In this document: one piece after another, positions 28,461-58,641 of the stretch
Layout of the letters: each line of letters starts with the position of its first letter
Numbering within the stretch: the stretch's first letter is position 1
Assembly: GCA_043800905.1 (NCBI GenBank)
Contig: JAZDMO010000007.1
Location: 1,627 to 65,626 of the forward strand
Source: Patescibacteria group bacterium
GTDB taxonomy: Bacteria; Patescibacteriota; Minisyncoccia; Phycocordibacterales; UBA12079
Direction of reading: 5' to 3'
Length of the DNA: 64,000 bases
Translations under genes and position numbers: made by a program
The notes under the pieces: generated by a model
What the model was told of the DNA's origin: nothing
Database searches by the model: none
Seen by the model: the letters and a program-made list of their open reading frames with translations, nothing else

Positions 28461-28551
28461 CAAAATTAAAAAACTGAAACTTTTTGTTTCGGTTTTTTAA
28501 TTTATATTGAAAATATATAGTTTTTCATATATTATTTAAATTGGTTTAAAA

Positions 28552-28627: not shown

Positions 28628-28648
28628 ATTATAGAGGAGATGAGTTTC

Positions 28649-28721: not shown

Positions 28722-28807
28722 CAATAGATATTTTGGTAGTCGCCTCATCGGCGACCCGCTGGAGAGGAGGGTTCAATTCTGCGAGGTGACTCATGAGTTT
28801 TAATTAT

Positions 28808-31404: not shown

Positions 31405-31440
31405 TAATGTTGGTTTAACATTGGTGTGTTGTGTTATAAT
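31405..31440 (+). promoter_or_regulatory. candidate sigma70-type promoter with extended -10 (TGtTATAAT) for the ATPase gene
   Basis: ttggtg (31411-31416) ...18 bp... tgttataat (31432-31440). This lies inside the 5' end of the tracked ORF, so the real start codon is probably downstream (possibly GTG 31450, leaderless). Confidence 0.3.
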
Positions 31441-34711: not shown

Positions 34712-35581
34712 ATGAAAAAGAAAATAGTTTTAGTGACCGGCGGTGCTGGTTTTATAGGTTCTCATCTAATTGAAGAGTTAGTTAAAGATGAAAATAACCG
34801 AGTTATCTCTCTTGATAATTATTTTACTGGTAAAAAAGAAAATCATATTGTTGGGGCTGAATATATCGAAGGGCATACTAAAGATATTGAATTCCTTGTG
34901 ACTGAAATTCCCGACATTGTTTATCATTTAGGTGAATATTCTCGGGTGTTAACCTCTTTTGAAGATATTGCTTTGGTTTGGGAAATGAATAAATTGGGAA
35001 CTTTTAAAGTTTTAGAATTTTGTCGTAAGAATAAAATTCGTTTGATTTACGCGGGATCAAGTACTAAATTCGGAGAATTCAGTGATAATAATGGAAATGG
35101 TAAAGATCAAAGTCCCTATGCTTGTTTTAAGGCATCGAATACTGATTTGGTAAATAATTATGGAAATTGGTTTGGTTTGGATTATGCGATTACTTATTTT
35201 TATAATGTTTCTGGTGGGCGAGAAATGCGTACTGGAAAATATGCAACTTTGATTGGAATTTTTACTGATAAAAAATTAAAAGGCGAAAAACTTTCAGTGG
35301 TGGCTCCAGGGACACAAAAAAGAGCTTTTACTCATGTGGAAGATACTGTTCGTGGACTTATCTTAGTCGGAGAGAAAGGTCAGGGTGATGGTCACTGTAT
35401 TAGTTCTGAAAAAGAATATTCTATTTTAGAAATTGCTCAAATGTTTGGAGGAGAAATAGAAATGTTGCCAGAAAAAAGAGGTGATAGAAATTTTTCAAAA
35501 ATGGATTTAACTAAAATGAAAGAGTTAGGCTGGGTTGCTGAAAAAGATATAAAAGATTATATTCAAAATATAATTAAATAA
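34712..35581 (+). CDS. NAD-dependent epimerase/dehydratase (extended SDR; UDP-glucuronate decarboxylase/UXS-like)
   Basis: Rossmann VLVTGGAGFIGSHL, DNYFTGKKEN, catalytic YACFK (YxxxK). Confidence 0.7.
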   Translation: MKKKIVLVTGGAGFIGSHLIEELVKDENNRVISLDNYFTGKKENHIVGAEYIEGHTKDIEFLVTEIPDIVYHLGEYSRVLTSFEDIALVWEMNKLGTFKVLEFCRKNKIRLIYAGSSTKFGEFSDNNGNGKDQSPYACFKASNTDLVNNYGNWFGLDYAITYFYNVSGGREMRTGKYATLIGIFTDKKLKGEKLSVVAPGTQKRAFTHVEDTVRGLILVGEKGQGDGHCISSEKEYSILEIAQMFGGEIEMLPEKRGDRNFSKMDLTKMKELGWVAEKDIKDYIQNIIK

Positions 35582-41229: not shown

Positions 41230-42258
41230 ATGAAAATTTATATAAGTAAAATTTTAGATTTACCATACCTTCCAATTTTGTACCCCAATTTAGGATTTCA
41301 AACAAAAGGAGGTTTTTTATTTTTAAATAAAGGTCAAAACTTTTTTGATAAAACTTTTTTTGATTTAGTTTTTGAACCTGAAGAAGCTGATTTTTTAATG
41401 TTGCCCCATAATTACCCTTTGATAAAAAATCAAGAAAATTATTTAAAAGAAATAATAGACCTTTCTAAAAAATTACAAAAGAAAATTATTGTTTTTGTAT
41501 ATGGAGATTCAGACGGGGAAGTTAATATAGAAAATTCTGTGGTTTTTAGAACTTCACAATATAAATTTAAAAAGAAATTTAATGAAATTATCGCCCCTCC
41601 TTTTATAGAAGATTTGTTAGAAAATACAAATATTTCTTTGCGAGAGAAAAAAGAAAAACCAAGAGTTGGTTTTTGTGGTTTTGCTGATATCAGAGGTTGG
41701 AAAGGAAAATTAAAATTTTGGATTAAAACTTTTTTTGCTTCAAGAGAAGTTTATCGGCAAGGAATTTTCTTTAGGAAAAAAGCTATTAAGGTTTTAGAAA
41801 AATCTAATTTAGTAAAAACTAATTTTATTTTAAGGGACTTTTATTCAGGAAATTTAAAAACGATTAAAATTCTTCCTGAAATTGCAAGAAATGAATATAT
41901 AAATAACCTTTTAAATTCTGATTTCGTCTTAGCTCCTAAAGGTGACGGTAATTTTTCTTTGAGATTTTTTGAAGCTCTTTCTCTTGGAAGAATCCCTGTG
42001 TTAATTGATACTGAGTGTATTCTTCCTTTGGAAGAAGTAGCTAATTATGATGATTTTGTTTTAAGAATTGACTATAAGAATATCTCTAACTTAGATAAGA
42101 TTATTTTTGATTTTTATGATAAATTATCTGATAAGGATTGGGAAAATATGCAAAAAATGGCGAGAGAAAGTTTTGTTAATTATCTTAATGTGAAAAGCTT
42201 TTACCAACTCTTTTTTTCTGATAACGGTTTTTTGATGAAAAATTATTTGAATCTATGA
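41230..42258 (+). CDS. exostosin-like (GT47-type) putative glycosyltransferase
   Basis: C-terminal DFVLAPKGDGNFSLRFFEALSLGRIPVLIDTECILPLEEVANYDDFVL resembles the exostosin/GT47 C-terminal motif. Confidence 0.45.
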   Translation: MKIYISKILDLPYLPILYPNLGFQTKGGFLFLNKGQNFFDKTFFDLVFEPEEADFLMLPHNYPLIKNQENYLKEIIDLSKKLQKKIIVFVYGDSDGEVNIENSVVFRTSQYKFKKKFNEIIAPPFIEDLLENTNISLREKKEKPRVGFCGFADIRGWKGKLKFWIKTFFASREVYRQGIFFRKKAIKVLEKSNLVKTNFILRDFYSGNLKTIKILPEIARNEYINNLLNSDFVLAPKGDGNFSLRFFEALSLGRIPVLIDTECILPLEEVANYDDFVLRIDYKNISNLDKIIFDFYDKLSDKDWENMQKMARESFVNYLNVKSFYQLFFSDNGFLMKNYLNL

Positions 42259-43292
42259 AATATAAAAATTTAATTTATTTTCAAAACGGGTCCATGGGGG
42301 ATTTTTTAATGACAATTTTCTTCTTGGAAAATGTTTATTTAAATAATCCTGAATTGAATCTTTATGTCGTGGTGCCAAAAAGTGAAAAGCTTCTACAACA
42401 ATTTTTAGAAAAATATTCTTACATTAAAATAATTTTAGTAAATCGTAAATCCTATAAGGGGATTTCGGGAATGATAAAATTATTAAAATTTTATTTTTCT
42501 TCTAATTTGGTTTTAACAGCTCCCACCCCAGGAAAACTTTCCTTGTTGGTAAAGTTGCAAGCTAAAATGATAGCTTTGATGCCATATTCTAAATTGGTAG
42601 GTTTTGACGATGGAGAGAAAATAAATGAAACTATTTATAATGAAGTTTTAGACTATCATACAGATATAATTTATCCCGAATTTTTAAAACAAGTTTTGCT
42701 TTCACTAGGTTTTGAAATCAAAATAGAAAATCCTTTATTTAGATATCAAAAAGACGAAAACATCTTGAAAAGAATGGATTTAACAGAAAATAGTTTTGTG
42801 GTAATTAATCCTTTGGCGGCTACACAAGGAAGAAGTTTAAACGGAAAAGAAATGTCAGATTTTATAAAAGAAATTAAAAAAATAAATAATAATTTAAAAA
42901 TTGTTTTAACTGGAGGAGGAAATGATAGCGAAATTCTTCAAAATTTCTCTAAAATTTTTGACAATGTTTTTGTTTTTGTTAATTTAAGAATAACTGATTT
43001 ATGTAATTTAATTGAGGGAGCAAATTTATTTGTGGGGGTAGACACGGGGACTACTCACCTTGCTTCTTTTTTAAATAAAAAATCTTTGGTTATCGCTAAA
43101 AACGGAACTCCAAATTGGTTGCCTTATTACAATAAAAATGCTCGTATTTTATTTTCAATTAACAATTGCAACCAAGTGATTTATGAAGGAAGAGATTTTT
43201 TGGAAAAAAATAGGGGTAGTAAATTAAGATGTTTAGAAAATGTTCCTGTTGAGGTTGTTAAAAGATCTTTAGGCGAAATATTAACAAAATAA
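42255..43292 (+). CDS. glycosyltransferase family 9 (heptosyltransferase-like)
   Basis: VVINPLAATQGRSLNGKEMSDFIKEI and NLFVGVDTGTTHLASFLNKKSLVI match GT9 signatures. Confidence 0.6.
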   Translation: MKYKNLIYFQNGSMGDFLMTIFFLENVYLNNPELNLYVVVPKSEKLLQQFLEKYSYIKIILVNRKSYKGISGMIKLLKFYFSSNLVLTAPTPGKLSLLVKLQAKMIALMPYSKLVGFDDGEKINETIYNEVLDYHTDIIYPEFLKQVLLSLGFEIKIENPLFRYQKDENILKRMDLTENSFVVINPLAATQGRSLNGKEMSDFIKEIKKINNNLKIVLTGGGNDSEILQNFSKIFDNVFVFVNLRITDLCNLIEGANLFVGVDTGTTHLASFLNKKSLVIAKNGTPNWLPYYNKNARILFSINNCNQVIYEGRDFLEKNRGSKLRCLENVPVEVVKRSLGEILTK

Positions 43293-44445: not shown

Positions 44446-45117
44446 GTGAAAGTATTTATATTAAAATTAATAGTAAAATACAGAAAATTAGAAAGTATAT
44501 TCTTGTGGTTGTTAAAAGATATTACTGTAAAAGTTCATGATGTAAGAATTAAAACCCATATTACTGATATGTCAGATGCTCAAACTTTTAGGGAAATATT
44601 TTTAAAAGGAGAATATGATAGAGAATTAGGAACTCCAAAAACAATTTTAGACTTAGGTTCTAATGTTGGTTATTCAATATTATTTTTTAAGGCAAAATAT
44701 CCGGATGCTGTGATTTGTGGATATGAGGCAAACCCCGAAACTTTTAAAAAATTAAAAAGAAATGTGGGCCATTTAAATAATGTAAAGATTTTTAATAAGG
44801 CCATAAGTGACAAAAACGGTTTTGAAAAAATGTATTTAGGTAGTAGTTCAGCATCATCTTCTTTAGTGGATAGATTTGATGAAAATTTTCCTACAGCGCA
44901 AGTAGAATGTATAGAGTTACCCAAGCAAGATTTTGATTTAATTAAATTTGATATAGAGGGAGGGGAACATAAGGTTATAAAGAACCCAACAAATACTAAA
45001 TATATTATAGGAGAGGTTCATTATGATTTAGGGAGTGGATTTAAATTAGATAATTTTGATTTAAAAATTATTAAAATATCAAGGTACCGAGAAGTTGTAT
45101 GGGGTTATCTTAAATAA
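44446..45117 (+). CDS. FkbM-family methyltransferase
   Basis: ILDLGSNVGYSILFF...GYEANPETFKKLKRN...IKFDIEGGEHKV, the FkbM pattern. The true start may be the internal ATG near 44569. Confidence 0.6.
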   Translation: MKVFILKLIVKYRKLESIFLWLLKDITVKVHDVRIKTHITDMSDAQTFREIFLKGEYDRELGTPKTILDLGSNVGYSILFFKAKYPDAVICGYEANPETFKKLKRNVGHLNNVKIFNKAISDKNGFEKMYLGSSSASSSLVDRFDENFPTAQVECIELPKQDFDLIKFDIEGGEHKVIKNPTNTKYIIGEVHYDLGSGFKLDNFDLKIIKISRYREVVWGYLK

Positions 45118-45756
45118 ATGATCAAAATTAAAATATATAAATCAAAAGAAAAGTTAATTAAAGATAAAATTTCTAAAGATGATGTAGTTTTGGATGTGGG
45201 TTTTTGGGGGCAGAATACGAATATAGATAGTAAAGATTGGGTGCATAAAATTTTATTATCTCAGAGTAGTAATGTTTTTGGTGTTGATTTAAATTTCGAT
45301 GGTGGTCGATTGAGAAATCTTGGAAATTATAGAAAACAATCAGCTGAAAATTTTGATTTTGATAAAAAATTTGATGTAATTTTTGCCGGAGATTTAATTG
45401 AGCACCTTTCAAATTTAGGTTTATTTTTGGATTCTTGTAAGAGAAATTTAAAAGATGAAGGAACATTGATAATTACTACCCCAAACGCTTTTGGTCTTTT
45501 TAATATAATGGAAAAACTTTTAAAAAAAGAGCCAAGTGTAAATAGTGATCATACTGTCTATTTTAATTTTATAGTTCTTAAAAAATTATTAGAAAAGAAT
45601 GGCTGGGAAGTTACAGAAGAAAGTTATTTAGATGATGTGTGGCCTAAATATAGACAAAGTCTAAAAAGAAAATTTCTCTATTTGATTTATAAATTTTTTA
45701 ATTTTTTTACTGATAAGTTTGTGGAAAATCTAGTAATTATTGTTAAAAAAAAATGA
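45118..45756 (+). CDS. class I SAM-dependent methyltransferase
   Basis: VLDVGFWGQ (motif I), FDVIFAGDLIEHLSN (motif II/III), TPNAF. Confidence 0.6.
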   Translation: MIKIKIYKSKEKLIKDKISKDDVVLDVGFWGQNTNIDSKDWVHKILLSQSSNVFGVDLNFDGGRLRNLGNYRKQSAENFDFDKKFDVIFAGDLIEHLSNLGLFLDSCKRNLKDEGTLIITTPNAFGLFNIMEKLLKKEPSVNSDHTVYFNFIVLKKLLEKNGWEVTEESYLDDVWPKYRQSLKRKFLYLIYKFFNFFTDKFVENLVIIVKKK

Positions 45757-46475
45757 AAAATAAAGTTGTAATTTATACAGCCATTTTTGGCGGAAAAGAT
45801 AACTTGATTGAACCGGAATTTATTCCTGAAGGATGTGATTTTGTGTGTTTTACTGATTCAGATTTTGTTTCGGGTGTTTGGGAAGTTAGAAAAGTAAAAC
45901 CTGAGTTTGAAGATCCAAACAGAAGCGCAAAAATTTACAAAATTTTGCCTCATAAATATTTTCCAGAATATGAAATTAGTATTTGGATTGATGGAAATAT
46001 GTTGGTGAAAGGGGATGTGAGTGAGTTAATAAAAAAATATTTAAAAGATGTTAACTTTTCAGCTTTTGACCATACCCCCTATAGAAAATTTTGGAAAAAG
46101 TTTTTTCCTTTGAAATTCGAAGAATATCGTGATTGTGTTTACGATGAAGCAAGATTCATTTTAGAGCTTGGTAAAAAGAGAGTGAAATATAAAGATGATC
46201 CTGAATTAATTAAATTTCAAATAGAAAAATATCGTAAAGAAAATTATCCCAAACATAGTGGTTTAATAGTGGGGATGGTTTTGTTGAGAAGACATAATGA
46301 AGAAGATGTCATACAAACAATGGAAGCTTGGTGGCAAGAAATTCAAAATGGAAGTTGTAGAGACCAATTAAGTTTTAATTATGTCGCTTGGAAAAATAAT
46401 TTTAATTTTTGTTATATAGAACAAAGTTCTAGAAAAAACAGGTGGTTTCTACATACACAACACAGGTTAAAATAG
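45753..46475 (+). CDS. DUF616/TOD1-like putative glycosyltransferase
   Basis: VIYTAIFGGKDNL...CFTDSDF...IWIDGNM. Confidence 0.45.
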   Translation: MKNKVVIYTAIFGGKDNLIEPEFIPEGCDFVCFTDSDFVSGVWEVRKVKPEFEDPNRSAKIYKILPHKYFPEYEISIWIDGNMLVKGDVSELIKKYLKDVNFSAFDHTPYRKFWKKFFPLKFEEYRDCVYDEARFILELGKKRVKYKDDPELIKFQIEKYRKENYPKHSGLIVGMVLLRRHNEEDVIQTMEAWWQEIQNGSCRDQLSFNYVAWKNNFNFCYIEQSSRKNRWFLHTQHRLK

Positions 46476-47349: not shown

Positions 47350-48249
47350 TTATTTTTCTATCCATGCAAATAATTTGGTTTTGGTTTTGTATATTGTGTA
47401 TTTCGGAACAAACAATTTTATTTTACTTTCAATTATTTCAGGGTCGTCTGGGAGGTGATAGGTACAAATAGCTATTTTCGGTTTATACTTTTGAATGGTA
47501 TTTCTCGCCCCATCTAGAAATTTTCTTTCAGCTCCCTCTATATCTATTTTTATAAAGTCTATTTTAGTTATAGTTTGATTTTTTTCAATAAAAGAATCTA
47601 GAGTAATTTGTTGTACTTCTTCAATTTCTGTATTTTTCCCTTGTCTTTCGCTAGAGCTACTAACCAATTTATCTTTATTTACAAAAAAATTAATATTTGT
47701 ATTGATATCACCCAGTGCATATGGGAGATATTGAATATTAGTTATATTATTTGTTTTTATATTTTTGTTTAAAAAAATACCCGTTTCTTTTATTGGTTCA
47801 AAGGAAAAAATTTTTCCACCACCTCCTATTTGTTGTGACGCAAATATAGAAAAAAGTCCTATATTTGATCCTGCATCAATGACAACATCATCTTTTTCTA
47901 AAAATACTCCGTTTTCTTCATAGGGGCCTTCAAAATCTAAAAGTAAATTATTATTTAATATGTTCTTTTTTATAAATTCATTTTTAGACAGTAATATTGA
48001 AACAATATCACCCACAGGAAGGTGATTATTGTAAAAAAAAGTATAACCCATACAGACAAAGTTTTTTTCGTTCTGATTATAATCAATGAGATTTCTTTTT
48101 TTTAAAATATTAGGAATCCAATTTCTTTTTTTTAATCTTTTAAAAACAAGATTAGGAGATATTGAGTAAATAATAATAAAAATATTTTTCCCCCAGGATT
48201 CTTTAATAAGAAAATTTATTCTTGGAATTATCTTTTTTAATAAATTCAT
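47350..48249 (-). CDS. FkbM-family methyltransferase
   Basis: VIDAGSNIGLFSIFASQQIGGGGKIFSFEP and IKIDIEGAERKFL. Confidence 0.6.
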   Translation of the reverse strand: MNLLKKIIPRINFLIKESWGKNIFIIIYSISPNLVFKRLKKRNWIPNILKKRNLIDYNQNEKNFVCMGYTFFYNNHLPVGDIVSILLSKNEFIKKNILNNNLLLDFEGPYEENGVFLEKDDVVIDAGSNIGLFSIFASQQIGGGGKIFSFEPIKETGIFLNKNIKTNNITNIQYLPYALGDINTNINFFVNKDKLVSSSSERQGKNTEIEEVQQITLDSFIEKNQTITKIDFIKIDIEGAERKFLDGARNTIQKYKPKIAICTYHLPDDPEIIESKIKLFVPKYTIYKTKTKLFAWIEK

Positions 48250-50254: not shown

Positions 50255-50450
50255 GTTGTTTTAATTTATAGTAATTATTAAAGCATTTTTTAACAATGAC
50301 AGCAATTTTGTTTGAATTCAGGAATTAATTTGTGGGATGAGTCTTAATATTTTTGAGTAAAATATATTGCTATTTTGGGATAAAGGGTGTAGTTTGATAG
50401 GTAGACTGTTCTTTAATTTCAAAATAAAAAAACTAAAAGAGGAGGCAAAA

Positions 50451-51752
50451 ATGAGGAAAAGAATATTACTTATAGATCCGCCCTTTCAAAGATTTATGGG
50501 ATTTTCCAAAACAGGAATTCCTCTCGGGCTGTTGTCTTTGGCAGGAGTTTTGAAAAAAAGAGGTCATTGGGTTGAAGTTCTGGATTCGGATTATAATCCA
50601 AATGGAACCCCTTACCCTTTTATGGATAAAATAGGCCACTATGATGAATACCTTGATAATTTAAATAATGGAAACCATTTAATTTGGGAGGACATTTCTT
50701 CCCAGATTGAGAAATCAAAACCAGATGTGGTTGGTATTTCTTTTATTTCTACCAAATTAAGGAGCGGATTAAGGGTCGCGCAAATTGCAAAAAAGATGGG
50801 TGTAAAAAGAATTGTGGGAGGGGGTCCTCATGTAATAATTCGTCCAGATGATGTTGCTGGCAAAGGTAGTGCTGTTGATTATTTAATTATTGGAGAGGCT
50901 GAAGAACAATTGGATGTTTTTGAAGGAAGCCCTTCTAATAGCGTTATAAAAGCAAGCAGAATAAAAAATTTAGATTCATTGCCTTGGATGGCCAGGGAAA
51001 GTCTTGTGGGGATTCACCATTATCGACCTTCTGATCTTGGTTTTATGATAACCTCAAGAGGGTGTTCTGGGTCTTGCAATTTTTGCTGTTCTGAGAAATT
51101 GTGGGGCAAAAAAGTCAGATTCAGGAGTATTCAAGATGTCATTGCAGAAATGGTTTATGTTAACAAAAAATATGGTACCAAAAAGTTTTATATGACAGAT
51201 GATACTTTTACAATGAATAGAAAAAGAGTTTTTGAATTTACTGACGGGCTTCTTGGAAAAAAATATGAATGGGGTTGTTTGACTCGAGTAGATAGAATAA
51301 ATAGTAAAATGCTTGAACAAATGGTTTTGTCTGGTTGTAATATGATTAAAGTCGGTGTTGAGAGTGGAAGTCAGAGGGTATTAAATTTAATGAACAAGGG
51401 AACAACCCTCAGTCAGGCAAGAGCTGTTGCAAAGTTGCTTAATGATTTTTCTGTAACTTGGCTAGCTTATATAATGGTTGGAGTTCCTGGGGAAACCTCT
51501 GAAGATGTTGATGCCACTATGAAGTTTGTCGATGAAATCAAACCCACTTATGTTAGTGCTTCAATTTATACTCCGTATGTTGGAACTGGTTTTTACAAAA
51601 ACGGTTACGACCATTTATTAAAAGGGAAAATTATGGGCGATTATGCTATCGAAGAAGCAAATCACCACAGTTTAAAAGTTATAGCGGGAGATGTTCCTCG
51701 TGAAAAGATTGTTGAATTCATGAGATTTGCGGATAGTTATAATTCACCCTAG
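50451..51752 (+). CDS. B12-binding-domain radical SAM enzyme (class B radical SAM methylase-like)
   Basis: The N-terminal RILLIDPP...GIPLGLLSLAGVLKKRGHWVEVLD is a B12-binding Rossmann. It is followed by a CSGSCNFCC (Cx3Cx2C) radical SAM cluster motif. The start is placed at the ATG after the aggagg SD (frame of the tracked ORF). Confidence 0.7.
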   Translation: MRKRILLIDPPFQRFMGFSKTGIPLGLLSLAGVLKKRGHWVEVLDSDYNPNGTPYPFMDKIGHYDEYLDNLNNGNHLIWEDISSQIEKSKPDVVGISFISTKLRSGLRVAQIAKKMGVKRIVGGGPHVIIRPDDVAGKGSAVDYLIIGEAEEQLDVFEGSPSNSVIKASRIKNLDSLPWMARESLVGIHHYRPSDLGFMITSRGCSGSCNFCCSEKLWGKKVRFRSIQDVIAEMVYVNKKYGTKKFYMTDDTFTMNRKRVFEFTDGLLGKKYEWGCLTRVDRINSKMLEQMVLSGCNMIKVGVESGSQRVLNLMNKGTTLSQARAVAKLLNDFSVTWLAYIMVGVPGETSEDVDATMKFVDEIKPTYVSASIYTPYVGTGFYKNGYDHLLKGKIMGDYAIEEANHHSLKVIAGDVPREKIVEFMRFADSYNSP

Positions 51753-51901: not shown

Positions 51902-52807
51902 CTAGATTTTCATCCAAGTTAAGGGTATTGGATTATATTTATTTTTTTCTAAATCAGTAAACCACTTTTCAGGGGCTATTACTATTTTGTCAGGGTTTGG
52001 GTTTAACCAAGCTCCCCACCAACTAAAAGAACTGTTAGCAATAACATTGTGTTTACACAAGCTCATCAATATTAAATCTTCATAATTTTTGTTTTCTTCA
52101 ACAAAGGTAATAGAGAATTCGGTTTTAAAATTTTCTTTTGCCCACCAGATATCATCAGAAAAAACAAAGATTTTTAGATCTTTGAATTTTTCTGAAATTT
52201 TTTGGATAGCGTTTTGATAATAATCTAAAGAACAGATTTCATAAATTTTGTTTGTTTTTTTATTATTGATATAATCGCTTCTGCGAATATGGATAGAAAT
52301 TGAATTTGTGTTTTCAATAATCCCTTTTAATTTTTGATTTTTAATTGAGAATTCATTTTTTAAAGTAAATTCTTCACGAATAATATTTTTAATATTTTTT
52401 CCGTTCGAGATAAATCCGTCTTGGGCGGAAAAATATTTTTCGTTTTGCCAATAACCATCTAGATAAATATCTTTGTTGGAATTTTCTAGTATTTTTTTAT
52501 TAAAATTATTCGGCTTTTCAGTAATATAAATTGAATTATCTGAAAAAAATAAATTATAAAAAAGATATTTCCAATTATTTATTTTTTTATATTTCTTTAA
52601 CTTTTTTATTTCGTCATTGTTCGCTATCTTTTCAACTATATTAAAAATTCCTAATTCATATTTGCGAGGAGTCGTGTTTTTTTTAATGTGATTAAACCAA
52701 GAGATATCTAATTTTAATTCGGTTTTATTTTTTTCAGCCAAAGCACGTCCAATTGCATATTGGAACATTTGATTTCCTAAACCGCCTGTTAATTTAACAA
52801 TAATCAT
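51902..52807 (-). CDS. glycosyltransferase family 11 alpha-1,2-fucosyltransferase (FutC-like)
   Basis: GGLGNQMFQYA at the N-terminus, HIRRSDY, CKHNVIANSSFSWWGAWL, KIVIAPEKWF: all four GT11 hallmarks. Confidence 0.7.
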   Translation of the reverse strand: MIIVKLTGGLGNQMFQYAIGRALAEKNKTELKLDISWFNHIKKNTTPRKYELGIFNIVEKIANNDEIKKLKKYKKINNWKYLFYNLFFSDNSIYITEKPNNFNKKILENSNKDIYLDGYWQNEKYFSAQDGFISNGKNIKNIIREEFTLKNEFSIKNQKLKGIIENTNSISIHIRRSDYINNKKTNKIYEICSLDYYQNAIQKISEKFKDLKIFVFSDDIWWAKENFKTEFSITFVEENKNYEDLILMSLCKHNVIANSSFSWWGAWLNPNPDKIVIAPEKWFTDLEKNKYNPIPLTWMKI

Positions 52808-52808
52808 A

Positions 52809-53393
52809 TTATTTATTTTTCAAACCGAGAGTCTCTGCGGCTGTTGTTTTTTGCCTGAATCCTACCACTTTTGCTGGGGCCCCGACAGCAATAGCATATT
52901 CGGGAATATCTTTGGTTACAACACTGCCAGCTCCGATAACGGCGCCTTTTTCTATGGTGACACCGTCTAGTATAGATGAATTTCCTCCTATCCAGACTTC
53001 GTCTTTTATTATGGTTCCTTTCATTTCGTTTCCGCTTGTTTTTATTGACTCTGTTGTTTTTATGTTGTGGTTAGCCCCGGGGATATTTACATTTGGGCCT
53101 ATTGAAACATTATTTCCTATCTTTACTTTTCCACAAATAAAGTTATTAACCCCTAAATCACAATTATCTCCAACAGTTAATTCAATAGGTGATATGAAAC
53201 AATTATGGTAAATCGTTATGTTTTTACCAAATTTAATTTTGTTTTTGTTCCTTATAAAAGTATTGTTGAAAAGCGTAATAGGGAGTTCTATTTTTTCAAA
53301 TTTATTTTTGTTTAAAAAATAAAAAAATAAACCATAAAGTTTTTGTTTGTTCTTAGAATATTTATATAAATAAAACAATCTTTTTCTTAACAT
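52809..53393 (-). CDS. hexapeptide-repeat (left-handed beta-helix) O-acetyltransferase
   Basis: Repeated [LIV]G..xx[IV] hexads (IGNNVSIGPNVNI, IGGNSSILDGVTIEKGAVIGAGSVV). Confidence 0.65.
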   Translation of the reverse strand: MLRKRLFYLYKYSKNKQKLYGLFFYFLNKNKFEKIELPITLFNNTFIRNKNKIKFGKNITIYHNCFISPIELTVGDNCDLGVNNFICGKVKIGNNVSIGPNVNIPGANHNIKTTESIKTSGNEMKGTIIKDEVWIGGNSSILDGVTIEKGAVIGAGSVVTKDIPEYAIAVGAPAKVVGFRQKTTAAETLGLKNK

Positions 53394-55006
53394 ATTGATA
53401 TAATATCATTTTTAACCTTGAATTTTAAGTTTTTGTTTTTATTTTTAATAAATTCTTTTAGTTTGCTTATTGTTGGATAATCATTTTCCCCCACAAAACA
53501 TCTTGCGTCATCAATGAGAATAACATGGTTTTTAATTGGATGATTAAAAATAGCAGTTAACTCTTTGAAGATTGGTGTGTTTAAATTACCTTTGGCGGTA
53601 ATATCTCCAGAATAATGACCGTCAAGCCAAAAAAGGCAAGGTTCATTTATCTCTTTTAAAATACTAGGAAGTATTTCTCCGCTATCCCCGTTTAAAATTA
53701 AAATATTGGTGTTTTGTTTAAACTTATCAACGGCTTTTCTATATAAAGAGATGTCTAATTCAATTGAATAAATCTTTTTAAACATTTTTTCCATTGCCTC
53801 CACCATTTTACCTTTATAGGTGCCCGTTTCTATGAAAGTTTTTATTCTATATTTTCTGGCATATTTTTTTATATTTTTTTGTTTGATTACGTGGGGAGGG
53901 GGGGTTGGTTTGCCTCTAGTTAACCAAATTAAAATAATTAATTGATTTTTTAGATAATTAGCAAATTTATTAAAAAGTATTTTTTTTACAAAAAGTTTAG
54001 ATATTAATTTTATTTTTAATAAAAATAGTTTTAGTTTTTTTAACATAATTTCTTTAATCGTGGGCGGATAGTTATTTTCTGGATTAATTTCTAAAATCTC
54101 ATACCGCAGAGGTTCACCACTCGATGTTTTTTTAATAATTTTTGTAATCATGGGAAAAAGATTATATTCGTCCAAAATCAATTCTTTCGATTGGATAATT
54201 TCTCCTTTCGATTTTTCATAAGTATTATTTTTTAGGGTGTCTTCAATAATTTTTATAGCTTCTCTTGGTTTTTTTATATCAATTACTGACAATGAATTTT
54301 TAGGAAAATATTCGTAAATATTTGAACACCCATAATAAAGTGGGTAACTTTCTCCTAAAAATGCATCAGAGAGTTTTTCTGACCAATAATCTCTATTAGA
54401 ACTATTTTCTAGAACAATATGATATTTATATGGGGCAATAATATCCCATTTATCAGTGAAATCTTTTATATCTTTACCCAAAATATCTATTTTATTTCCA
54501 AAATGTTTTTTTAATTTATTTATGAATTTTAATCTTTGACGGTGTCCTTTTGTGGAGTTTTTATTTGATGAAATTACTGAAATCAACCTACTTTTCTTTA
54601 TTTCTTGGGAACTTTTTAAATTGTCGTAATTTTTAGAAAAGTTTCCCCATGTGTTTATTTCTTTATTATACTCAGCACCAATCATCCATGGCAATGACTC
54701 TTGTTTGTTTAGTATATTTGGATGTTTGATGTTTCTTTGTGACGTAATAATAGTTTCAAATTGTTTTAAAAAATTAGAGTTATATTTTTTTATGTTTTTC
54801 GGTTCCGTTGTAATGAAAATTGTGTTTTTTTTAGGACAAATACAGCTCTCTTTTTGTACTAAACCGCCCAAAATAATCCAGTAATCACATTTTTCAATGT
54901 TTTTGTTTATTGAAAAATGGTAATTCTCCCAGATCCCTTTCGAATTTGGTGTCTGTCTTTCTATAGGCCATTCTGGGGAAGCTGTTGTTAATTTAATTTT
55001 TTGCAT
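53387..55006 (-). CDS. bifunctional: N-terminal GT10 alpha-1,3/4-fucosyltransferase-like domain fused to a C-terminal methyltransferase-like domain
   Basis: The N-domain has YKYHIVLENSSNRDYWSEKLSDAFLGESYPLYYGCSNIYEYFPKNSLSVIDI (GT10 FxLxFENSxxxDYxTEK..P.Y.G motif). The C-domain (approx. residues 340-539) has FIETGTYKG...LFWLDGHYSG...ILIDDARCF and is paralogous to ORF 54993-55709. Confidence 0.55.
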   Translation of the reverse strand: MQKIKLTTASPEWPIERQTPNSKGIWENYHFSINKNIEKCDYWIILGGLVQKESCICPKKNTIFITTEPKNIKKYNSNFLKQFETIITSQRNIKHPNILNKQESLPWMIGAEYNKEINTWGNFSKNYDNLKSSQEIKKSRLISVISSNKNSTKGHRQRLKFINKLKKHFGNKIDILGKDIKDFTDKWDIIAPYKYHIVLENSSNRDYWSEKLSDAFLGESYPLYYGCSNIYEYFPKNSLSVIDIKKPREAIKIIEDTLKNNTYEKSKGEIIQSKELILDEYNLFPMITKIIKKTSSGEPLRYEILEINPENNYPPTIKEIMLKKLKLFLLKIKLISKLFVKKILFNKFANYLKNQLIILIWLTRGKPTPPPHVIKQKNIKKYARKYRIKTFIETGTYKGKMVEAMEKMFKKIYSIELDISLYRKAVDKFKQNTNILILNGDSGEILPSILKEINEPCLFWLDGHYSGDITAKGNLNTPIFKELTAIFNHPIKNHVILIDDARCFVGENDYPTISKLKEFIKNKNKNLKFKVKNDIISIC

Positions 55007-55709
55007 AAATGATTTTTCTCAGTATCTTTTTAATCTTGCGATAATTAAAGCTCGCTTTTTGTCTGAACGGCTCTTTGTATGATTTTGATTTGATATATTT
55101 TATATTATCACACGGGACTATCCTTATAATATCGTTAGAAACTTTAAAATTGATATTACTATTTATTTTTTTTATAAAAGAGAATAGTTCTTTAACAGTT
55201 GGGTATTCATTTTCTCCCGTAAAACATCTTGCGTCATCGATAAGGATTATATGATTTTTAATACGATGATTTAATATAATTTCTAGTTCTTTTAAAATCG
55301 GGGTATTAAGATTACCTCTTGCTGTTATTCCTCCAGAGTAGTGGCCATCTAGCCAAAAAAGTGTGGGTTGATATAAAGTGGGAGTAACCACTTTTAAAAT
55401 ATCAGAACTATCTCCTTGAAGTATTGTTATATGGGTATTATAAATGAATTTTTCTTTTGATTTTTTATATAGATCTTTGTCTAATTCGATTGATATTAAT
55501 TTTTTGAATTTGTTTTTTAAAGCTTCCACTGTTTCTCCTAAGAAAGTACCGGTTTCAATAAAAATATCAATAGAAAATTCCTTAGCATAGTTTTCTATTG
55601 TTTGCCTTTTTATGGTATAGAGGGGAGGACTGATTGGCTTGCCAATAATAAATTTATATAGTTTATTATCAATAGTGTTTAATATCTTTTTAATTTGTTT
55701 TTTTACCAT
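54993..55709 (-). CDS. standalone paralog of the methyltransferase-like domain (TylF/MycF-like fold suspected)
   Basis: FIETGTFLGETVEAL...LFWLDGHYSGGITARGNLNTPILKELEIILNHRIKNHIILIDDARCF. Collinear with the C-domain of the upstream gene over approx. 190 aa. Confidence 0.5.
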   Translation of the reverse strand: MVKKQIKKILNTIDNKLYKFIIGKPISPPLYTIKRQTIENYAKEFSIDIFIETGTFLGETVEALKNKFKKLISIELDKDLYKKSKEKFIYNTHITILQGDSSDILKVVTPTLYQPTLFWLDGHYSGGITARGNLNTPILKELEIILNHRIKNHIILIDDARCFTGENEYPTVKELFSFIKKINSNINFKVSNDIIRIVPCDNIKYIKSKSYKEPFRQKASFNYRKIKKILRKIIYAKN

Positions 55710-56975
55710 TTAGCTATATTTATCTGTTGAATAATCTAAAACCGTAGCAATTTGTCCTTCACTTGACCCTTTAAATATTAGTGATTTTGGGTTGTTTACA
55801 TCAGTTATTTCAAAATAAATATCTTTTTTATGATCAAAAGATTCTATGCAAGGTTCGTGGATAGCAGTAGTGAAATTATAATTTCCTACATTAAACAAAA
55901 ATGACGGGATCTCAACAACGGTTGCGTATTTTCCTGGAGAATAGGTTTTTAGTTTTTTTGTTTTGTCTGATTCAGAAGATTTTAATAGTAGTGTATTTGA
56001 TGAGTAAAATAAGATAGAAAAAAGAGCATTCTCAACCTTTTTAAGAACTTTGTATTCTGTTTTAATAAAAAAGTTTTGGCTAATAGGTATATTGGTTGTT
56101 GGCTTTTTATTTTTATCTAGAATGGAAACTCTTGTGATTTGTGCTTTCTTTTTTTGATCAACTTCAAATTCAGTAACGGCTTTTTTTTCTTTTATCTTGT
56201 TTAAATAATGACTGATAACTTTTTTCGTTTCTCCGATCATTTTTATTTTTCCGTTTTCGATTAGAATACACCTTTTGCAAAGTTTTTTAACGGCTTCTAG
56301 GTTATGGCTTACGAATAGAATAGTTCTTCCTGCTTGGCTGGTGACCTCGTCCATTTTACCAAGGCATTTTTTTTGGAATTCTGCGTCGCCGACAGCAAGA
56401 ACTTCATCTACCAAAAGAATATCAGGTTCCATATGAGCTGCCACAGAAAAACCAAGACGCACTAGCATTCCAGAAGAATATCTTTTTACGGGCGTATCAA
56501 TAAATTTTCCTACTCCTGAAAATTCTACGATAGCATCAAATTTTTCAGCAATTTCTTTTTTAGTCATTCCTAAAATAGCTCCATTAAGAAAAATATTTTC
56601 TCGTCCAGTTAATTCAGAATGAAAACCGGTCCCAACTTCTAGAAGAGAGGCCACTTTTCCGTGCATTCTGATTTCTCCTGTGGTTGGTGGTGTGATTCCT
56701 GTTAAAATTTTAAGTAAAGTAGACTTACCCGCTCCATTGGCTCCGATAATTCCAACAGCTTCTCCTGCTTGAATTTCAAAATCAATGTCTTTTAATGCCC
56801 AAAATTCTTCATTAGTATTTCTCCCTGTAATTTGTTCAGCTTTCTTTTTTAGAAAAGAAAAAGGTTTTTTAGCTATATTGGTTAAAACATCGCGCATTGC
56901 AACATAACTACCTCGTTCATGAGTGATATTGTATTTTTTTGAAATGTTTTTAACAATTATTATTGGTTTATTCAT
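55710..56975 (-). CDS. wzt: ABC transporter ATP-binding protein of the glycan-export (Wzt/TagH) type with a C-terminal glycan-binding domain
   Basis: Walker A GANGAGKST, signature YSSGMLVRL, Walker B ILLVDE. An extra approx. 160-aa C-terminal beta-rich domain is typical of Wzt_C. Confidence 0.8.
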   Translation of the reverse strand: MNKPIIIVKNISKKYNITHERGSYVAMRDVLTNIAKKPFSFLKKKAEQITGRNTNEEFWALKDIDFEIQAGEAVGIIGANGAGKSTLLKILTGITPPTTGEIRMHGKVASLLEVGTGFHSELTGRENIFLNGAILGMTKKEIAEKFDAIVEFSGVGKFIDTPVKRYSSGMLVRLGFSVAAHMEPDILLVDEVLAVGDAEFQKKCLGKMDEVTSQAGRTILFVSHNLEAVKKLCKRCILIENGKIKMIGETKKVISHYLNKIKEKKAVTEFEVDQKKKAQITRVSILDKNKKPTTNIPISQNFFIKTEYKVLKKVENALFSILFYSSNTLLLKSSESDKTKKLKTYSPGKYATVVEIPSFLFNVGNYNFTTAIHEPCIESFDHKKDIYFEITDVNNPKSLIFKGSSEGQIATVLDYSTDKYS

Positions 56976-56987: not shown

Positions 56988-57815
56988 TCATACAACGTCT
57001 GCAAAATATCTTTCGGTTTTTTTGAAAAAATAAAATCCTATTAATAAGACTATTAGACAAACAGTTCCTGAAATTGTTAAAAGTGTCCAATTTATTGGGG
57101 CATTTCCTAATAGAGCTGCACGAGAGGCTTTAATTACTCCAGTCATAGGATTTAAGGCCAAAAGCCATGAATATTTTCCTACAATACTAGCTGGATAAAT
57201 TACTGGGGTGACAAACATCATTATGGAAATGAAAAAAGGTAAAGCATAACGAACATCGCGATATTTAACATTTATAGAAGCAAGAAATAGACCACCTCCT
57301 ACTGAAGCCATAAAAGTAATAAATAGAAGTAGGGGAATAATTAAAAGCCCAATTAAATTTGGTGTGTATTGATAATAAATCATCATTCCAACTAAAATAG
57401 TGGAGGCTATGAAAAAATCAACAAATTTTGTGATTGTAGATGAAATAGGTAAAATTATTCTTGGAAAGTAAACCTTAGTGATAATTCCTTGATTAGAAAT
57501 TAAACAATTACTTACATCTGATAAAGAAGCAGAAAAAAATTGCCAAAATAAAAGTCCAGAGTAAACAAAGATTGGGTAAGGAATTCCGTCTGAAGGCATT
57601 TTAGCAAAGTTTCCGAAAAATATGGTGAAAACAACCATCGTCATGAAAGGTTGAAAAAGAGCCCATAAAATTCCTATGGCTGTTTGTTTGTAGCGAACTT
57701 TAATATCTCTCCAAGTTAGGAAATACAATAATTCTTTGTATTGCCAGATTTCTTTTAAATCGTTAAAACTAAAAGTTTTTTTCGGTTTAATTATGGTTGT
57801 CTTTGAGTTATACAT
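56988..57815 (-). CDS. wzm: ABC-2 type polysaccharide export permease
   Basis: Six TM helices, 275 aa, immediately upstream of and co-oriented with the ATPase. Confidence 0.75.
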   Translation of the reverse strand: MYNSKTTIIKPKKTFSFNDLKEIWQYKELLYFLTWRDIKVRYKQTAIGILWALFQPFMTMVVFTIFFGNFAKMPSDGIPYPIFVYSGLLFWQFFSASLSDVSNCLISNQGIITKVYFPRIILPISSTITKFVDFFIASTILVGMMIYYQYTPNLIGLLIIPLLLFITFMASVGGGLFLASINVKYRDVRYALPFFISIMMFVTPVIYPASIVGKYSWLLALNPMTGVIKASRAALLGNAPINWTLLTISGTVCLIVLLIGFYFFKKTERYFADVV

Positions 57816-58336: not shown

Positions 58337-58641
58337 TTCGCAATGATATTTATTTACTGGATTGCCACACCGAGCGCCAAAAACTTTAATTAAAGTTTTT
58401 GGTGCTCGGCTCGCAATGACGAACGAACGGATGTTGGACCTGCCTGCCGGCAGGCAGGTTGCCATGATATCGCTCGCAATGACGAGATGCTGGGTTGCTT
58501 CGTAAACTCGCAATGACGAACTGACGAATAAACACTGGATTCCTCCCAAGCCTACCTGCCCCCGCCTGCCGGCGTGCAAGGGCAGGCAGGGCGGACAAAT
58601 GCCACAGAATTTTTTAAAACAAAAAATTCTTCGCAATGACG
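58337..58641. mobile_element. approx. 300-bp cluster of nested GC-rich repeat modules
   Basis: Contains ctggattgcc, ctcgcaatgacg three times, the 20-bp palindrome 58439-58458, gacgagatgctgggttgcttcgtaaactcgcaatgacg (inverted at 13215-13260), and tggattcctcccaagcctacctgcccccgcctgccggcgtgcaagggcaggcagggcgg (copy at 63775-63835). The ORFs tracked here on the minus strand are translations of the repeats. Confidence 0.6.

What the first reader, a model, noticed from the sequence alone, without database searches (positions are those of the whole stretch)
53387..55709. Fucosyltransferase fused to a methyltransferase-like domain, with a standalone paralog of that domain next door
Residues approx. 340-539 of the GT10-like protein and the whole adjacent 238-aa ORF are collinear paralogs (FIETGT..G....LFWLDGHYSG.ITA.GNLNTPI.KEL..I.NH.IKNH.ILIDDARCF). 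I could not assign the domain confidently; the fold is SAM-MTase-like (TylF/MycF sugar O-methyltransferases are suspected). A transferase-modifier fusion predicts a coupled add-and-modify step, for example a methylated fucose. The tandem duplicate suggests recent domain capture.
Basis: partly seen in the sequence, partly recalled or inferred. Interest (0 to 1): 0.6.

Follow-up and report, generated by a model that had tools for sequence, protein, structure and literature searches.

The report
Glycan-capping fucosyltransferase–methyltransferase fusion plus paralog
Two adjacent genes in a Patescibacteria surface-sugar export operon encode a fucosyltransferase-type enzyme fused to a methyltransferase domain and a free-standing copy of that domain; together they most likely add and methylate the end-cap sugar that licenses the sugar chain for export. 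The domain belongs to a very large family that no curated database describes.

Summary

Both genes sit in a tight wzm–wzt(CBM)–MT–GT10::MT–acetyltransferase–GT11 operon. The block recurs across phyla. Relatives put curated FkbM methyltransferases in the standalone copy's slot, fuse the same GT10 subfamily to three other methyltransferase families, and encode Gmd/Fcl next to wzm. The Wzt carbohydrate-binding module co-varies with this capping gene set rather than with the ATPase core.

Most likely function: add and O-methylate a terminal 6-deoxyhexose (probably fucose) cap that Wzt recognises. This is analogous to WsaE and to PBCV-1 A064R/A061L, but not homologous to the PBCV-1 pair (homology to WsaE was not tested). 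"Recent domain capture" is not supported: the two copies are not each other's closest relatives. Interest is moderate.

The parts
56988..57815 (-). wzm: ABC-2 permease of the glycan exporter; first gene of the operon
   Evidence: Pfam ABC2_membrane, E 1.6e-17. It is 67-92% identical to the Wzm of syntenic loci L001, L003, L011 and L034.
55710..56975 (-). wzt: ABC ATPase with a C-terminal carbohydrate-binding module (Wzt_C, residues ~275-387, about nt 55815-56153)
   Evidence: Pfam ABC_tran 79 bits and Wzt_C 43 bits (cutoff 30.4). NCBIfam matches TagH and galactan Wzt/RfbE exporters. CBM similarity is retained only in L001, L003 and L011 (40-49%).
54993..55709 (-). Standalone 238-aa class I SAM-dependent methyltransferase of an uncurated family. 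It has an N-terminal amphipathic helix (2-21), a catalytic core (~30-199) and a basic C-terminal amphipathic helix (215-237).
54107..55006 (-). GT10-family glycosyltransferase module (residues 1-300) of the 539-aa fusion protein
   Evidence: Pfam Glyco_transf_10 above threshold. PDB sequence matches to FUT9 and H. pylori FucT. N201/Y207/E210/K211 align with the GDP-Fuc-binding residues N240/Y246/E249/K250 of hpFucT. pLDDT is mostly 93-99 (one block 87) across the module.
53894..54106 (-). Linker (residues ~301-371): a short strand followed by a hairpin of two long helices (317-338, 342-363). It is lysine-rich, hydrophobic and has net charge +11.
   Evidence: AF2 secondary structure. Hydrophobicity and charge scan. 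It is too short to be a WbdD-type coiled-coil ruler.
53390..53893 (-). C-terminal methyltransferase domain (residues 372-539) of the fusion; paralog of the standalone ORF
   Evidence: BLASTP E 1e-69. It retains all 24 family-invariant residues (row 2 of A1). It has the same strand/helix order as the standalone model.
52809..53393 (-). Hexapeptide-repeat acetyltransferase (WbbJ/WcaF-like); overlaps the end of the fusion gene by 7 nt
   Evidence: Pfam Hexapep. NCBIfam WbbJ 6.6e-22, WcaF 4e-19. It is conserved in the same position in L001, L003, L005, L006 and L089.
51902..52807 (-). GT11-family (alpha-1,2-fucosyltransferase family) glycosyltransferase; last gene of the tight operon
   Evidence: Pfam Glyco_transf_11, 106.7 bits. 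It is conserved downstream in L001, L003, L005, L006 and L089. A GT11 lies within 10 kb of the MT domain in 17 of 80 species loci.

Best explanation
The two ORFs are capping enzymes of an ABC-transporter-dependent (Wzm/Wzt) surface-glycan pathway in a Patescibacteria bacterium.

The 539-aa protein is bifunctional. Its N-terminal GT10 (GT-B, inverting) module transfers a GDP-activated 6-deoxyhexose, most likely L-fucose, onto the non-reducing end of the lipid-linked glycan. Its C-terminal class I SAM-dependent O-methyltransferase domain then methylates that terminal residue in cis.

The adjacent 238-aa paralog is a second active methyltransferase. It adds a further methyl group, at another hydroxyl or on a neighbouring residue.

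The basic amphipathic helices of both proteins hold them at the cytoplasmic membrane face.

The methylated, possibly also O-acetylated, end group blocks further elongation and is the epitope read by the carbohydrate-binding module of Wzt, which licenses export.

Shown: the paralogy, the GT10 assignment, the methyltransferase fold and SAM motifs, the operon structure and the conserved synteny. Inferred: O-methylation as opposed to other methyl acceptors, fucose as the sugar, metal dependence (D121/D158/D159), the order of reactions, and the cap/termination role.
For: Fold and motifs:
- AF2 models are confident: 86.3 for the standalone and 93.0 for the fusion.
- The family profile hits Erm (E 1.5e-4) and PIMT (3.5e-4) exactly over motif I (ETGTxxG), the beta2 acidic residue (SIELD) and the beta3 GD.
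- Both window copies keep all 24 invariant residues, including E52, G54, G58, E75, D100 (nearly invariant), D121, H123, D158 and D159.
- A homolog's domain reaches 25.4 bits on Methyltransf_24 (cutoff 26.3).

Coupling to the GT:
- The fusion recurs in P0122, P0123 and P0124.
- The same GT10 subfamily is fused to FkbM, to Methyltransf_11/23/31, and to DUF268 plus MT_11.
- In L089 the nearest GT10 relative is followed, with a 4-nt overlap, by a protein carrying this domain.
- In L091 the nearest relative of the standalone copy precedes an unfused GT10 with the same 14-nt overlap.

Slot equivalence: in L001 and L003 a curated FkbM methyltransferase occupies the position between wzt and the fusion that the standalone paralog holds here.

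Sugar:
- hpFucT GDP-Fuc ligands N240/Y246/E249/K250 align with N201/Y207/E210/K211, and R158 aligns with the conserved Arg of FUT9.
- A GT11 lies in the operon.
- Gmd and Fcl lie directly upstream of wzm in L001 and L005, and Gmd is present in L089.

Cap role:
- Wzt carries a Wzt_C CBM.
- In all characterised cases such CBMs bind a terminal cap, which can be a plain O-methyl sugar (PMC11231755, PMC9445017).
- The CBM type is retained with the fusion in L001 and L003 (ATPase domain only 68-73% identical). It is lost in L034, L089 and L090 (ATPase domain 84-92% identical), which have different capping gene sets.
- Standalone family members abut wzt in Bacteroidota (L005), the assembly labelled Inquilinus sp. 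KBS0705 (L006), an Azospirillum plasmid (L172), a Woesearchaeota MAG (L010) and Paceibacterota (L011).

Precedents for the logic: WsaE (PMC2943079) and PBCV-1 A064R-D3 plus A061L (PMC9614988).
Against: - No member of this methyltransferase family has been characterised, and every source name seen is 'hypothetical protein'.
- No Gmd/Fcl is encoded in the 64-kb window, so the donor sugar is unproven. The closest GT10 relatives (L089, L090) sit beside Gmd plus an aminotransferase, which suggests a GDP-amino-6-deoxyhexose there.
- The cluster contains three more methyltransferases and a B12-radical SAM enzyme, so methyl groups may also, or instead, decorate internal residues.
- There is no coiled-coil ruler of the kind found in every characterised terminator (PMC11231755).
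- Only 12-13 of 80 species loci carrying the domain have Wzm/Wzt within 10 kb by tblastn, so capping cannot be the family's only role.
- Domain orientation in the fusion model is uncertain (pTM 0.68).
Confidence: 0.55

Rival explanations
1. The methyltransferase domains decorate internal repeat-unit residues or side branches of the glycan rather than making the export-licensing terminal cap. The Wzt CBM reads some other end group, such as an acetylated or otherwise distinct terminal sugar.
For: The cluster holds three other methyltransferases (two FkbM, one Methyltransf_23), a B12-radical SAM enzyme and an acetyltransferase, so a heavily methylated polymer is likely. Most family members in 80 species loci are not next to Wzm/Wzt. 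No coiled-coil ruler is present.
Against: The two genes are the first genes after wzt in a tightly overlapping operon. Family members abut wzt(CBM) in five further distant lineages. The CBM type co-varies with this gene set, not with the ATPase core. Fusion to a single-addition GT suits a terminal add-and-block step.
Confidence: 0.2
2. The chemistry differs from methyl-fucose. The GT10 module transfers another GDP-6-deoxyhexose (for example a perosamine-like amino sugar, or rhamnose/6-deoxytalose). Or the domain methylates a nitrogen, a phosphate or the nucleotide-sugar before transfer, rather than a glycan hydroxyl after transfer.
For: No Gmd/Fcl is in the window. The nearest GT10 relatives are flanked by Gmd, a DegT-type aminotransferase and a small unknown protein. 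Methyl-phosphate caps are known (PMC11231755). The fold alone does not specify the acceptor atom.
Against: The GDP-Fuc-contacting residues of hpFucT are conserved. Gmd plus Fcl flank wzm in L001, the locus of fusion ortholog P0123. No kinase domain or gene is present in the operon. The best structural neighbours are O-methyltransferases. GT-MT fusions characterised so far methylate after transfer.
Confidence: 0.15
3. One or both copies are non-catalytic. For example, the standalone paralog could be a structural or regulatory partner that heterodimerises with the fused domain, or a SAM or sugar sensor.
For: Many COMT/TylF-type methyltransferases are dimers (general knowledge). The standalone gene is translationally coupled to the fusion gene. 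No activity data exist for the family.
Against: Both copies retain every invariant residue of a family with over 10,000 cluster representatives, including the SAM-loop glycines, the beta2 Glu and the D121/H123/D158/D159 cluster. In syntenic loci the standalone slot is filled by curated FkbM methyltransferases. The standalone form is the commonest architecture of the family.
Confidence: 0.05

Closest known systems
WsaE of Geobacillus stearothermophilus NRS 2004/3a (S-layer glycan; PMC2943079)
   Same: It combines glycosyltransferase and O-methyltransferase domains in one polypeptide. It is encoded directly after wzm-wzt with overlapping codons. Its methyltransferase domain forms the 2-O-methyl cap that terminates the chain, and Wzt is predicted to bind that cap. 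The host is also a monoderm.
   Different: WsaE has two rhamnosyltransferase domains and an N-terminal methyltransferase. Here a single GT10 module precedes a C-terminal methyltransferase of an uncurated family, and a paralogous free methyltransferase is added. Homology to WsaE's methyltransferase domain was not tested because no sequence was available.
Chlorovirus PBCV-1 A064R (GT-GT-MT) with the free methyltransferase A061L (PMC9614988)
   Same: The logic is identical: a C-terminal methyltransferase domain methylates O-2 of the terminal 6-deoxyhexose that its own GT domain added. A ~209-aa stand-alone methyltransferase encoded nearby then adds a second methyl (O-3), and only after the first is in place.
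   Different: It is not homologous. The chlorovirus enzymes are absent from the close BFVD matches; the only close viral relatives are uncharacterised Solumvirus and iridovirus proteins. The sugar is rhamnose on an N-glycan, and no ABC exporter is involved.
WbdD (E. coli O8/O9a) and ORF6 of K. pneumoniae O7: chain terminators of ABC-transporter-dependent O-antigens (PMC3482155, PMC11231755)
   Same: A SAM-dependent methyltransferase creates the non-reducing-end cap, and a Wzt CBM must recognise the cap before export.
   Different: Those terminators carry a long coiled-coil molecular ruler and, in O9a/O3/O7, a kinase. The window proteins have neither, only a two-helix hairpin of about 45 residues. 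Here the cap sugar is probably added by the same polypeptide.
Cation-dependent class I O-methyltransferases (COMT, CCoAOMT, TrmR; Pfam Methyltransf_3/Methyltransf_24) and the TylF/MycF/SpnH sugar O-methyltransferases
   Different: The window proteins hit none of these HMMs at E<=0.1. Sequence identity is 10-17%. A long conserved insert (HYSGGITAKGxLxTPIxxEL) follows beta4. Metal binding is unverified.
GT10 alpha-1,3/4-fucosyltransferases (H. pylori FucT, human FUT9)
   Same: The Pfam GT10 C-terminal domain scores above threshold. The alpha-1,3-FucT motif YKYxxxxENSxxxDYxxEK and the donor-binding residues are conserved.
   Different: Identity is low outside the donor-binding half. The acceptor is a bacterial polymer. 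No H. pylori-type heptad repeats are present. It is fused to a methyltransferase.
FkbM-family methyltransferases (PF05050; the family includes NoeI, the Nod-factor fucose 2-O-methyltransferase, from my own knowledge)
   Same: They occupy the same gene slot between wzt and the GT10 fusion in L001 and L003. They are also fused to the same GT10 subfamily in P0128 and P0199.
   Different: It is an unrelated sequence family. The window domain does not match PF05050.

Membership tests
Class I (Rossmann-fold) SAM-dependent methyltransferase superfamily | Alternating beta/alpha fold with a seven-stranded sheet whose last two strands form a hairpin | tested here: met
Class I (Rossmann-fold) SAM-dependent methyltransferase superfamily | Glycine-rich motif I (E/DxGxGxG) after beta1, and an acidic residue at the end of beta2 that binds the SAM ribose | tested here: met
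   ETGTxxG (E52, G54, G58) and SIELD (E75) are invariant in 43 sequences. They align with the corresponding motifs of Erm, KsgA and PIMT.
Class I (Rossmann-fold) SAM-dependent methyltransferase superfamily | Binds SAM and transfers a methyl group | not testable with these tools
   Needs biochemistry or a co-crystal structure.
Cation-dependent O-methyltransferases (COMT/CCoAOMT/TrmR; Pfam Methyltransf_3, Methyltransf_24) | Match to the family HMM above its threshold | tested here: not met
   The window proteins have no hit at E<=0.1. A homolog (P0241) reaches 25.4 bits on Methyltransf_24 against a cutoff of 26.3.
Cation-dependent O-methyltransferases (COMT/CCoAOMT/TrmR; Pfam Methyltransf_3, Methyltransf_24) | Mg2+-binding triad: Asp after beta4 and Asp plus Asp/Asn after beta5 | tested here: inconclusive
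   Invariant D121 follows beta4 (116-120), and D158/D159 end beta5 (154-158). No residue-level superposition or coordinates were available. The hhalign comparison with a TylF/MT_24 protein lines up the same landmarks but is weak (E 0.034).
TylF/MycF macrocin-type sugar O-methyltransferases (PF05711) | Match to the TylF HMM | tested here: not met
CAZy GT10 fucosyltransferases | GT10 C-terminal (donor-binding) domain above the Pfam threshold | tested here: met
   PF00852: 40.3 bits against a cutoff of 23.9, residues 137-256. All 14 subfamily members tested match.
CAZy GT10 fucosyltransferases | Conserved GDP-fucose-binding residues (hpFucT N240, Y246, E249, K250, R195) | tested here: met
   N201, Y207, E210 and K211 align with them in the phmmer alignment to 2nzw. 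The residue roles come from PMC7826918. R158 aligns with the conserved Arg of FUT9. E200, N201, E210, K211 and R158 are invariant in the subfamily. Y207 is His in the two closest relatives.
CAZy GT10 fucosyltransferases | Uses GDP-L-fucose as donor | not testable with these tools
   Indirect evidence only: Gmd/Fcl lie beside wzm in L001 and L005, but none is in the window.
WbdD-type chain terminators of ABC-transporter-dependent glycans | Terminator module carried on a protein with a long coiled-coil molecular ruler | tested here: not met
   Only two 22-residue helices (317-338, 342-363) lie between the modules, and the standalone protein has none. The feature is as defined in PMC11231755.
WbdD-type chain terminators of ABC-transporter-dependent glycans | Cognate Wzt carries a C-terminal carbohydrate-binding module | tested here: met
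   Wzt_C: 43 bits against a cutoff of 30.4.
GT-methyltransferase bifunctional capping enzymes (WsaE-like, by architecture) | GT and methyltransferase domains in one polypeptide, encoded adjacent to wzm/wzt | tested here: met
   Sequence homology to WsaE itself was not tested.

The most novel reading that the evidence does not exclude
This uncurated methyltransferase family (at least 10,455 clusters at 50% identity) may define a widespread chain-termination mode for Wzm/Wzt glycans that has no molecular ruler. A GT10 module adds one unique terminal 6-deoxyhexose. A cis-fused methyltransferase blocks its hydroxyls at once, and a paralog completes a di-O-methyl epitope in obligatory order, as A064R/A061L do in chloroviruses. 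The Wzt CBM would be specific for that methyl-fucose cap. It would be the first defined surface-glycan capping system in Patescibacteria (CPR). The repeated fusions of the same GT10 subfamily would also mark DUF268 as a candidate for the still-unknown fucose O-methyltransferase of nematodes.
Probability: 0.3. Interest if true: 0.55.

Novelty: new variant of a known kind. Interest (0 to 1): 0.4.

Why it matters
A methyltransferase domain with over 10,000 sequence clusters across bacteria, archaea and giant viruses has no Pfam or NCBIfam model and no characterised member. Public records call it 'hypothetical protein', and the fusion is annotated only as 'glycosyltransferase family 10'. The comparative evidence here gives it a specific, testable job: methylating the end cap of exported glycans. 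It also provides a compact two-protein system (GT10::MT plus MT, with the matching Wzt CBM) for studying how cap chemistry and transporter specificity co-evolve. It is one of the few concrete predictions about cell-surface glycan structure in uncultivated Patescibacteria. The mechanism is still a variation on a well-established theme (WbdD, WsaE, A064R/A061L), so it would interest specialists without overturning anything.

Tried and rejected
1. Membership in TylF, Methyltransf_3 or Methyltransf_24. There is no HMM hit for the window proteins. hhalign against a TylF/MT_24 protein from L007 was weak (E 0.034), so I kept these only as structural neighbours.
2. Homology to the characterised chlorovirus methyltransferases A064R-D3 and A061L. 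The BFVD fold search returned only uncharacterised giant-virus relatives (34%, 28% and 23% identity) and no chlorovirus enzyme among the close hits. I rejected homology and kept the analogy.
3. Recent tandem duplication. I rejected this from domain identities and an NJ tree. Bootstrap values are low (19-75%), so only 'the two copies are not sisters and are no closer than cross-organism homologs' is claimed.
4. GDP-fucose genes in the window. tblastn with L001 Gmd/Fcl found only weak similarity to the 289-aa SDR at 34712..35581. NCBIfam does not call that protein Gmd or Fcl.
5. An initiating transferase or a ligase/oligosaccharyltransferase in the window. None was found among the ORFs scanned.
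6. Annotated homologs. The plasmid collection gave two hits, 'hypothetical protein' in each case, so no functional name.
7. Literature on fucosyltransferase-methyltransferase fusions or methyl-fucose capping enzymes. Nothing relevant was found in the searchable library. The R. etli CE3 tri-O-methylfucose cap and NoeI are cited from my own knowledge only.
8. A structured RNA in the odd 58.3-58.7 kb spacer. There was no Rfam hit at gathering threshold.
Full report
**Observation**

The two ORFs are real and lie exactly where stated: 53387..55006 (539 aa) and 54993..55709 (238 aa), both on the minus strand. They overlap by 14 nt, ATGCAAAAAATTAA.

BLASTP aligns residues 365-539 of the long protein with residues 23-198 of the short one. 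Identity is 59% with a single gap, E 1e-69. A family profile extends the relationship to 333-539 versus 2-232. The last ~40 residues of the short protein are a basic amphipathic helix with no counterpart in the fusion.

The N-terminal part of the long protein passes Pfam's threshold for Glyco_transf_10 (40.3 bits against 23.9). It also matches solved GT10 enzymes by sequence: FUT9 at E 1e-7 and H. pylori FucT at E 1e-6.

**What the repeated domain is**

No Pfam or NCBIfam model claims it. There are only sub-threshold matches to the SAM-binding N-terminal half of Erm/KsgA rRNA methyltransferases.

It belongs to a very large family:
- At least 5,028 proteins in the word-indexed database. Nearly all are 200-215 aa and standalone, and every name a source gives is 'hypothetical protein'.
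- 10,455 representatives at the 50%-identity level with E<=1e-3, and 2,404 with E<=1e-30.
- 592 hits among species genomes spanning most bacterial phyla and some archaea.
- 371 hits in viral contigs, including giant-virus MAGs.

An alignment of 43 members has 24 invariant positions, all present in both window copies. They form ETGTxxG, SIELD, GDS, WLDGHYS, TPIxxEL and IDDARCF.

A profile search against PDB sequences gives significant hits (Erm 1.5e-4, PIMT 3.5e-4) confined to beta1-beta3. These align ETGTxxG with the SAM glycine loop, and the Glu of SIELD with the ribose-binding acidic residue.

The invariant D121 (after beta4) and D158/D159 (end of beta5) sit where COMT-type enzymes bind Mg2+. 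I could not superpose coordinates, so metal dependence remains an inference. One homolog's domain nearly reaches the Methyltransf_24 threshold (25.4 against 26.3 bits).

**Context in the window**

The two genes are the third and fourth genes of a tightly packed minus-strand operon:
- wzm (56988..57815)
- wzt (55710..56975), which carries a Wzt_C carbohydrate-binding module at 43 bits against a cutoff of 30.4
- the standalone MT
- the GT10::MT fusion
- a hexapeptide acetyltransferase (52809..53393)
- a GT11 (51902..52807)

The operon closes a low-GC glycan cluster (35.5-57.8 kb). The cluster has about a dozen glycosyltransferases, two FkbM methyltransferases, a Methyltransf_23 and a B12-radical SAM enzyme.

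The source is a Patescibacteria MAG.

**Comparative evidence for a coupled add-and-methylate step**

1. The same fusion covers 99-100% of the query in three other clusters: P0122, P0123 and P0124.
2. The same GT10 subfamily is fused to unrelated, curated methyltransferase families elsewhere: FkbM (P0128, P0199), Methyltransf_11/23/31 (P0133), and DUF268 plus MT_11 (P0227).
3. In L001 and L003, the loci of P0123 and P0122, the gene order is wzm - wzt(CBM) - FkbM methyltransferase - GT10::MT - hexapeptide acetyltransferase - GT11 - GT2. A curated methyltransferase therefore occupies exactly the slot that the standalone paralog holds in the window.
4. In L091 (Kaiserbacteria), the closest relative of the standalone copy precedes an unfused GT10 with the same 14-nt overlap.
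5. In L089, the closest relative of the GT10 module (65% identity) is followed, with a 4-nt overlap, by a 464-aa protein whose C-terminus is this domain. A 39-aa remnant of the domain lies just upstream of that locus's acetyltransferase.

GT10-to-MT adjacency is thus conserved whether the two are fused or split, and the methyltransferase modules at this spot are frequently exchanged. Family-wide, the domain is also fused to GT2 (on either side), to GT1-like plus TPR, and to other methyltransferases.

**Which sugar**

In the phmmer alignment to H. pylori FucT, N201, Y207, E210 and K211 align with N240, Y246, E249 and K250. PMC7826918 describes those residues as the GDP-Fuc ligands, with Lys-250 and Arg-195 neutralising the phosphates. 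R158 aligns with the conserved Arg of FUT9. These residues are invariant in the subfamily, except that Y207 is His in the two closest relatives.

- L001 encodes Gmd (578 bits, cutoff 415) and an Fcl-like protein (479 bits, cutoff 500) immediately upstream of wzm.
- L005 has both above their cutoffs.
- L089 has Gmd plus an aminotransferase.

A GDP-6-deoxyhexose donor is therefore well supported, and fucose is the most likely one. The window itself has no Gmd/Fcl, so the donor is not proven here.

**Why a cap**

According to PMC11231755, every characterised terminated O-polysaccharide system has a CBM on Wzt that binds the terminal epitope and admits only terminated chains. According to PMC9445017, the cap can be a simple O-methyl sugar, and the A. 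aeolicus CBD binds 3-O-methyl-mannose but not mannose.

Family members lie directly beside wzt(CBM) in five further lineages:
- a Chitinophagaceae genome (L005)
- the genome assembly labelled Inquilinus sp. KBS0705 (L006)
- an Azospirillum plasmid (L172)
- a Woesearchaeota MAG (L010)
- a Paceibacterota MAG (L011)

Among 80 species loci, single-query tblastn (an undercount) finds a GT11 within 10 kb in 17 loci, within 3 kb in 12, and Wzm/Wzt within 10 kb in 12-13.

The CBM tracks the capping genes rather than the transporter core:
- L034, L089 and L090 have ATPase domains 84-92% identical to the window's, but their CBMs are undetectable or about 20% identical, and their capping gene sets differ.
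- L001 and L003 have ATPase domains only 68-73% identical, yet they keep a 40-43% identical CBM together with the GT10::MT fusion.

This is indirect but specific support for the CBM reading the product of these enzymes.

**Mechanistic picture (inferred)**

The full-length model (pLDDT 93.0, pTM 0.68) shows a GT module (residues 1 to ~300), a hairpin of two 22-residue helices, and the methyltransferase domain (372-539). The linker has net charge +11. The termini of the standalone protein have net charges +6 and +11. All are amphipathic, and none is a transmembrane segment. That suits peripheral membrane enzymes acting on a lipid-linked glycan.

I propose the following sequence:
1. The GT10 module adds one terminal 6-deoxyhexose.
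2. The fused domain O-methylates it.
3. The paralog adds a further methyl, and the acetyltransferase may add an acetyl.
4. The blocked end stops elongation and is bound by the Wzt CBM.

There is no coiled-coil ruler, which is a defining feature of WbdD-type terminators, so I do not file it under that family.

**Comparison with known systems**

The closest in architecture and context is WsaE of G. stearothermophilus. It is a GT-GT-MT protein encoded right after wzm/wzt, and its methyltransferase domain makes the terminating 2-O-methyl-rhamnose cap (PMC2943079).

The closest in logic is PBCV-1 A064R, whose C-terminal methyltransferase domain methylates O-2 of the rhamnose its own GT added. The nearby 209-aa A061L then methylates O-3, and only afterwards (PMC9614988). 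The BFVD fold search shows this is analogy, not homology.

**The 'recent domain capture' idea**

It is not supported. Over the trimmed domain the two copies are 57% identical.
- The standalone copy is closer to P0002 (66%), P0004 (63%) and P0005 (62%), which share its C-terminal tail.
- The fused copy is closer to P0241 (63%) and P0023 (60%).
- The fused domains of P0122, P0123 and P0124 do not group with it.

Bootstrap support is low, so the only firm conclusion is that the pair is old and not a sister pair.

**Verdict**

The finding is a new architectural variant of a known theme, GT-methyltransferase capping enzymes of ABC-transporter-dependent glycans. It is built from an uncurated but very large methyltransferase family. 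Interest is moderate (0.4). The mechanism is unsurprising to specialists, but the family deserves a curated model, and the system gives a concrete, testable prediction for CPR surface glycans.

Noticed in passing
window 58338-58641; also 12932, 13235, 19030, 19058(-), 31224(-): An 11-nt motif, TCGCAATGAYR, occurs 10 times in the window (0.06 expected by chance), always in intergenic spacers. Five copies lie in the 300-bp spacer next to the operon. There they alternate with GC-rich perfect palindromes (58370-58409, 58438-59), in an otherwise AT-rich genome. This looks like a dispersed intergenic repeat element. There is no Rfam match at gathering threshold.
   Followed up: partly
P0227, P0252; L089 10395-11144: DUF268 (PF03269, 'Caenorhabditis protein of unknown function') is fused to the same GT10 subfamily in P0227. 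It is fused to MT_11 plus this new domain in P0252, and it lies two genes after GT10 in L089. PMC7614267 states that the C. elegans fucose-modifying methyltransferase is unidentified and that DUF268 genes sit in glycosylation gene clusters. DUF268 is therefore a candidate fucose/6-deoxyhexose O-methyltransferase.
   Followed up: no
window 55815-56153 (Wzt CBM), compared with L034, L089, L090, L001, L003, L011: The Wzt carbohydrate-binding module is exchanged independently of the ATPase core. ATPase domains 84-92% identical to the window's go with unrecognisable CBMs (L034, L089, L090). ATPase domains 68-73% identical go with CBMs that are 40-49% identical (L001, L003, L011).
   Followed up: partly
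L089 11166-11282: A 39-aa remnant of the new methyltransferase domain's C-terminus lies just upstream of the hexapeptide acetyltransferase. This suggests that an ancestral fused or adjacent copy was displaced by the DUF268 gene now found there.
   Followed up: no
window 50367-51752 (+): A B12-binding radical SAM enzyme is encoded on the opposite strand, in the middle of the glycan cluster. It may be a C-methyltransferase or another radical sugar-modifying enzyme.
   Followed up: no
window 41230-42258, 42255-43292, 45753-46475: The bacterial glycan cluster contains eukaryote-typical glycosyltransferase families: a GT47/exostosin-like domain and a TOD1/MUCI70-like domain. It also contains a GT9 heptosyltransferase-like protein, in an organism expected to lack LPS.
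   Followed up: no
window 44446-45117, 45118-45756, 47350-48249: Three further curated methyltransferases (FkbM, Methyltransf_23, FkbM) lie in the same cluster, which implies a heavily methylated glycan.
   Followed up: no
window 8145-22219; 1679-2770; 28095-28722; 31426-33234: The rest of the window holds type IV pilus genes (PilM, two T2SSE ATPases, T2SSF, prepilin peptidase, pilin-like proteins). It also holds a GmrSD-HNH restriction enzyme, a cluster of five tRNA genes and a TrwB/TraG-like coupling protein.
   Followed up: no
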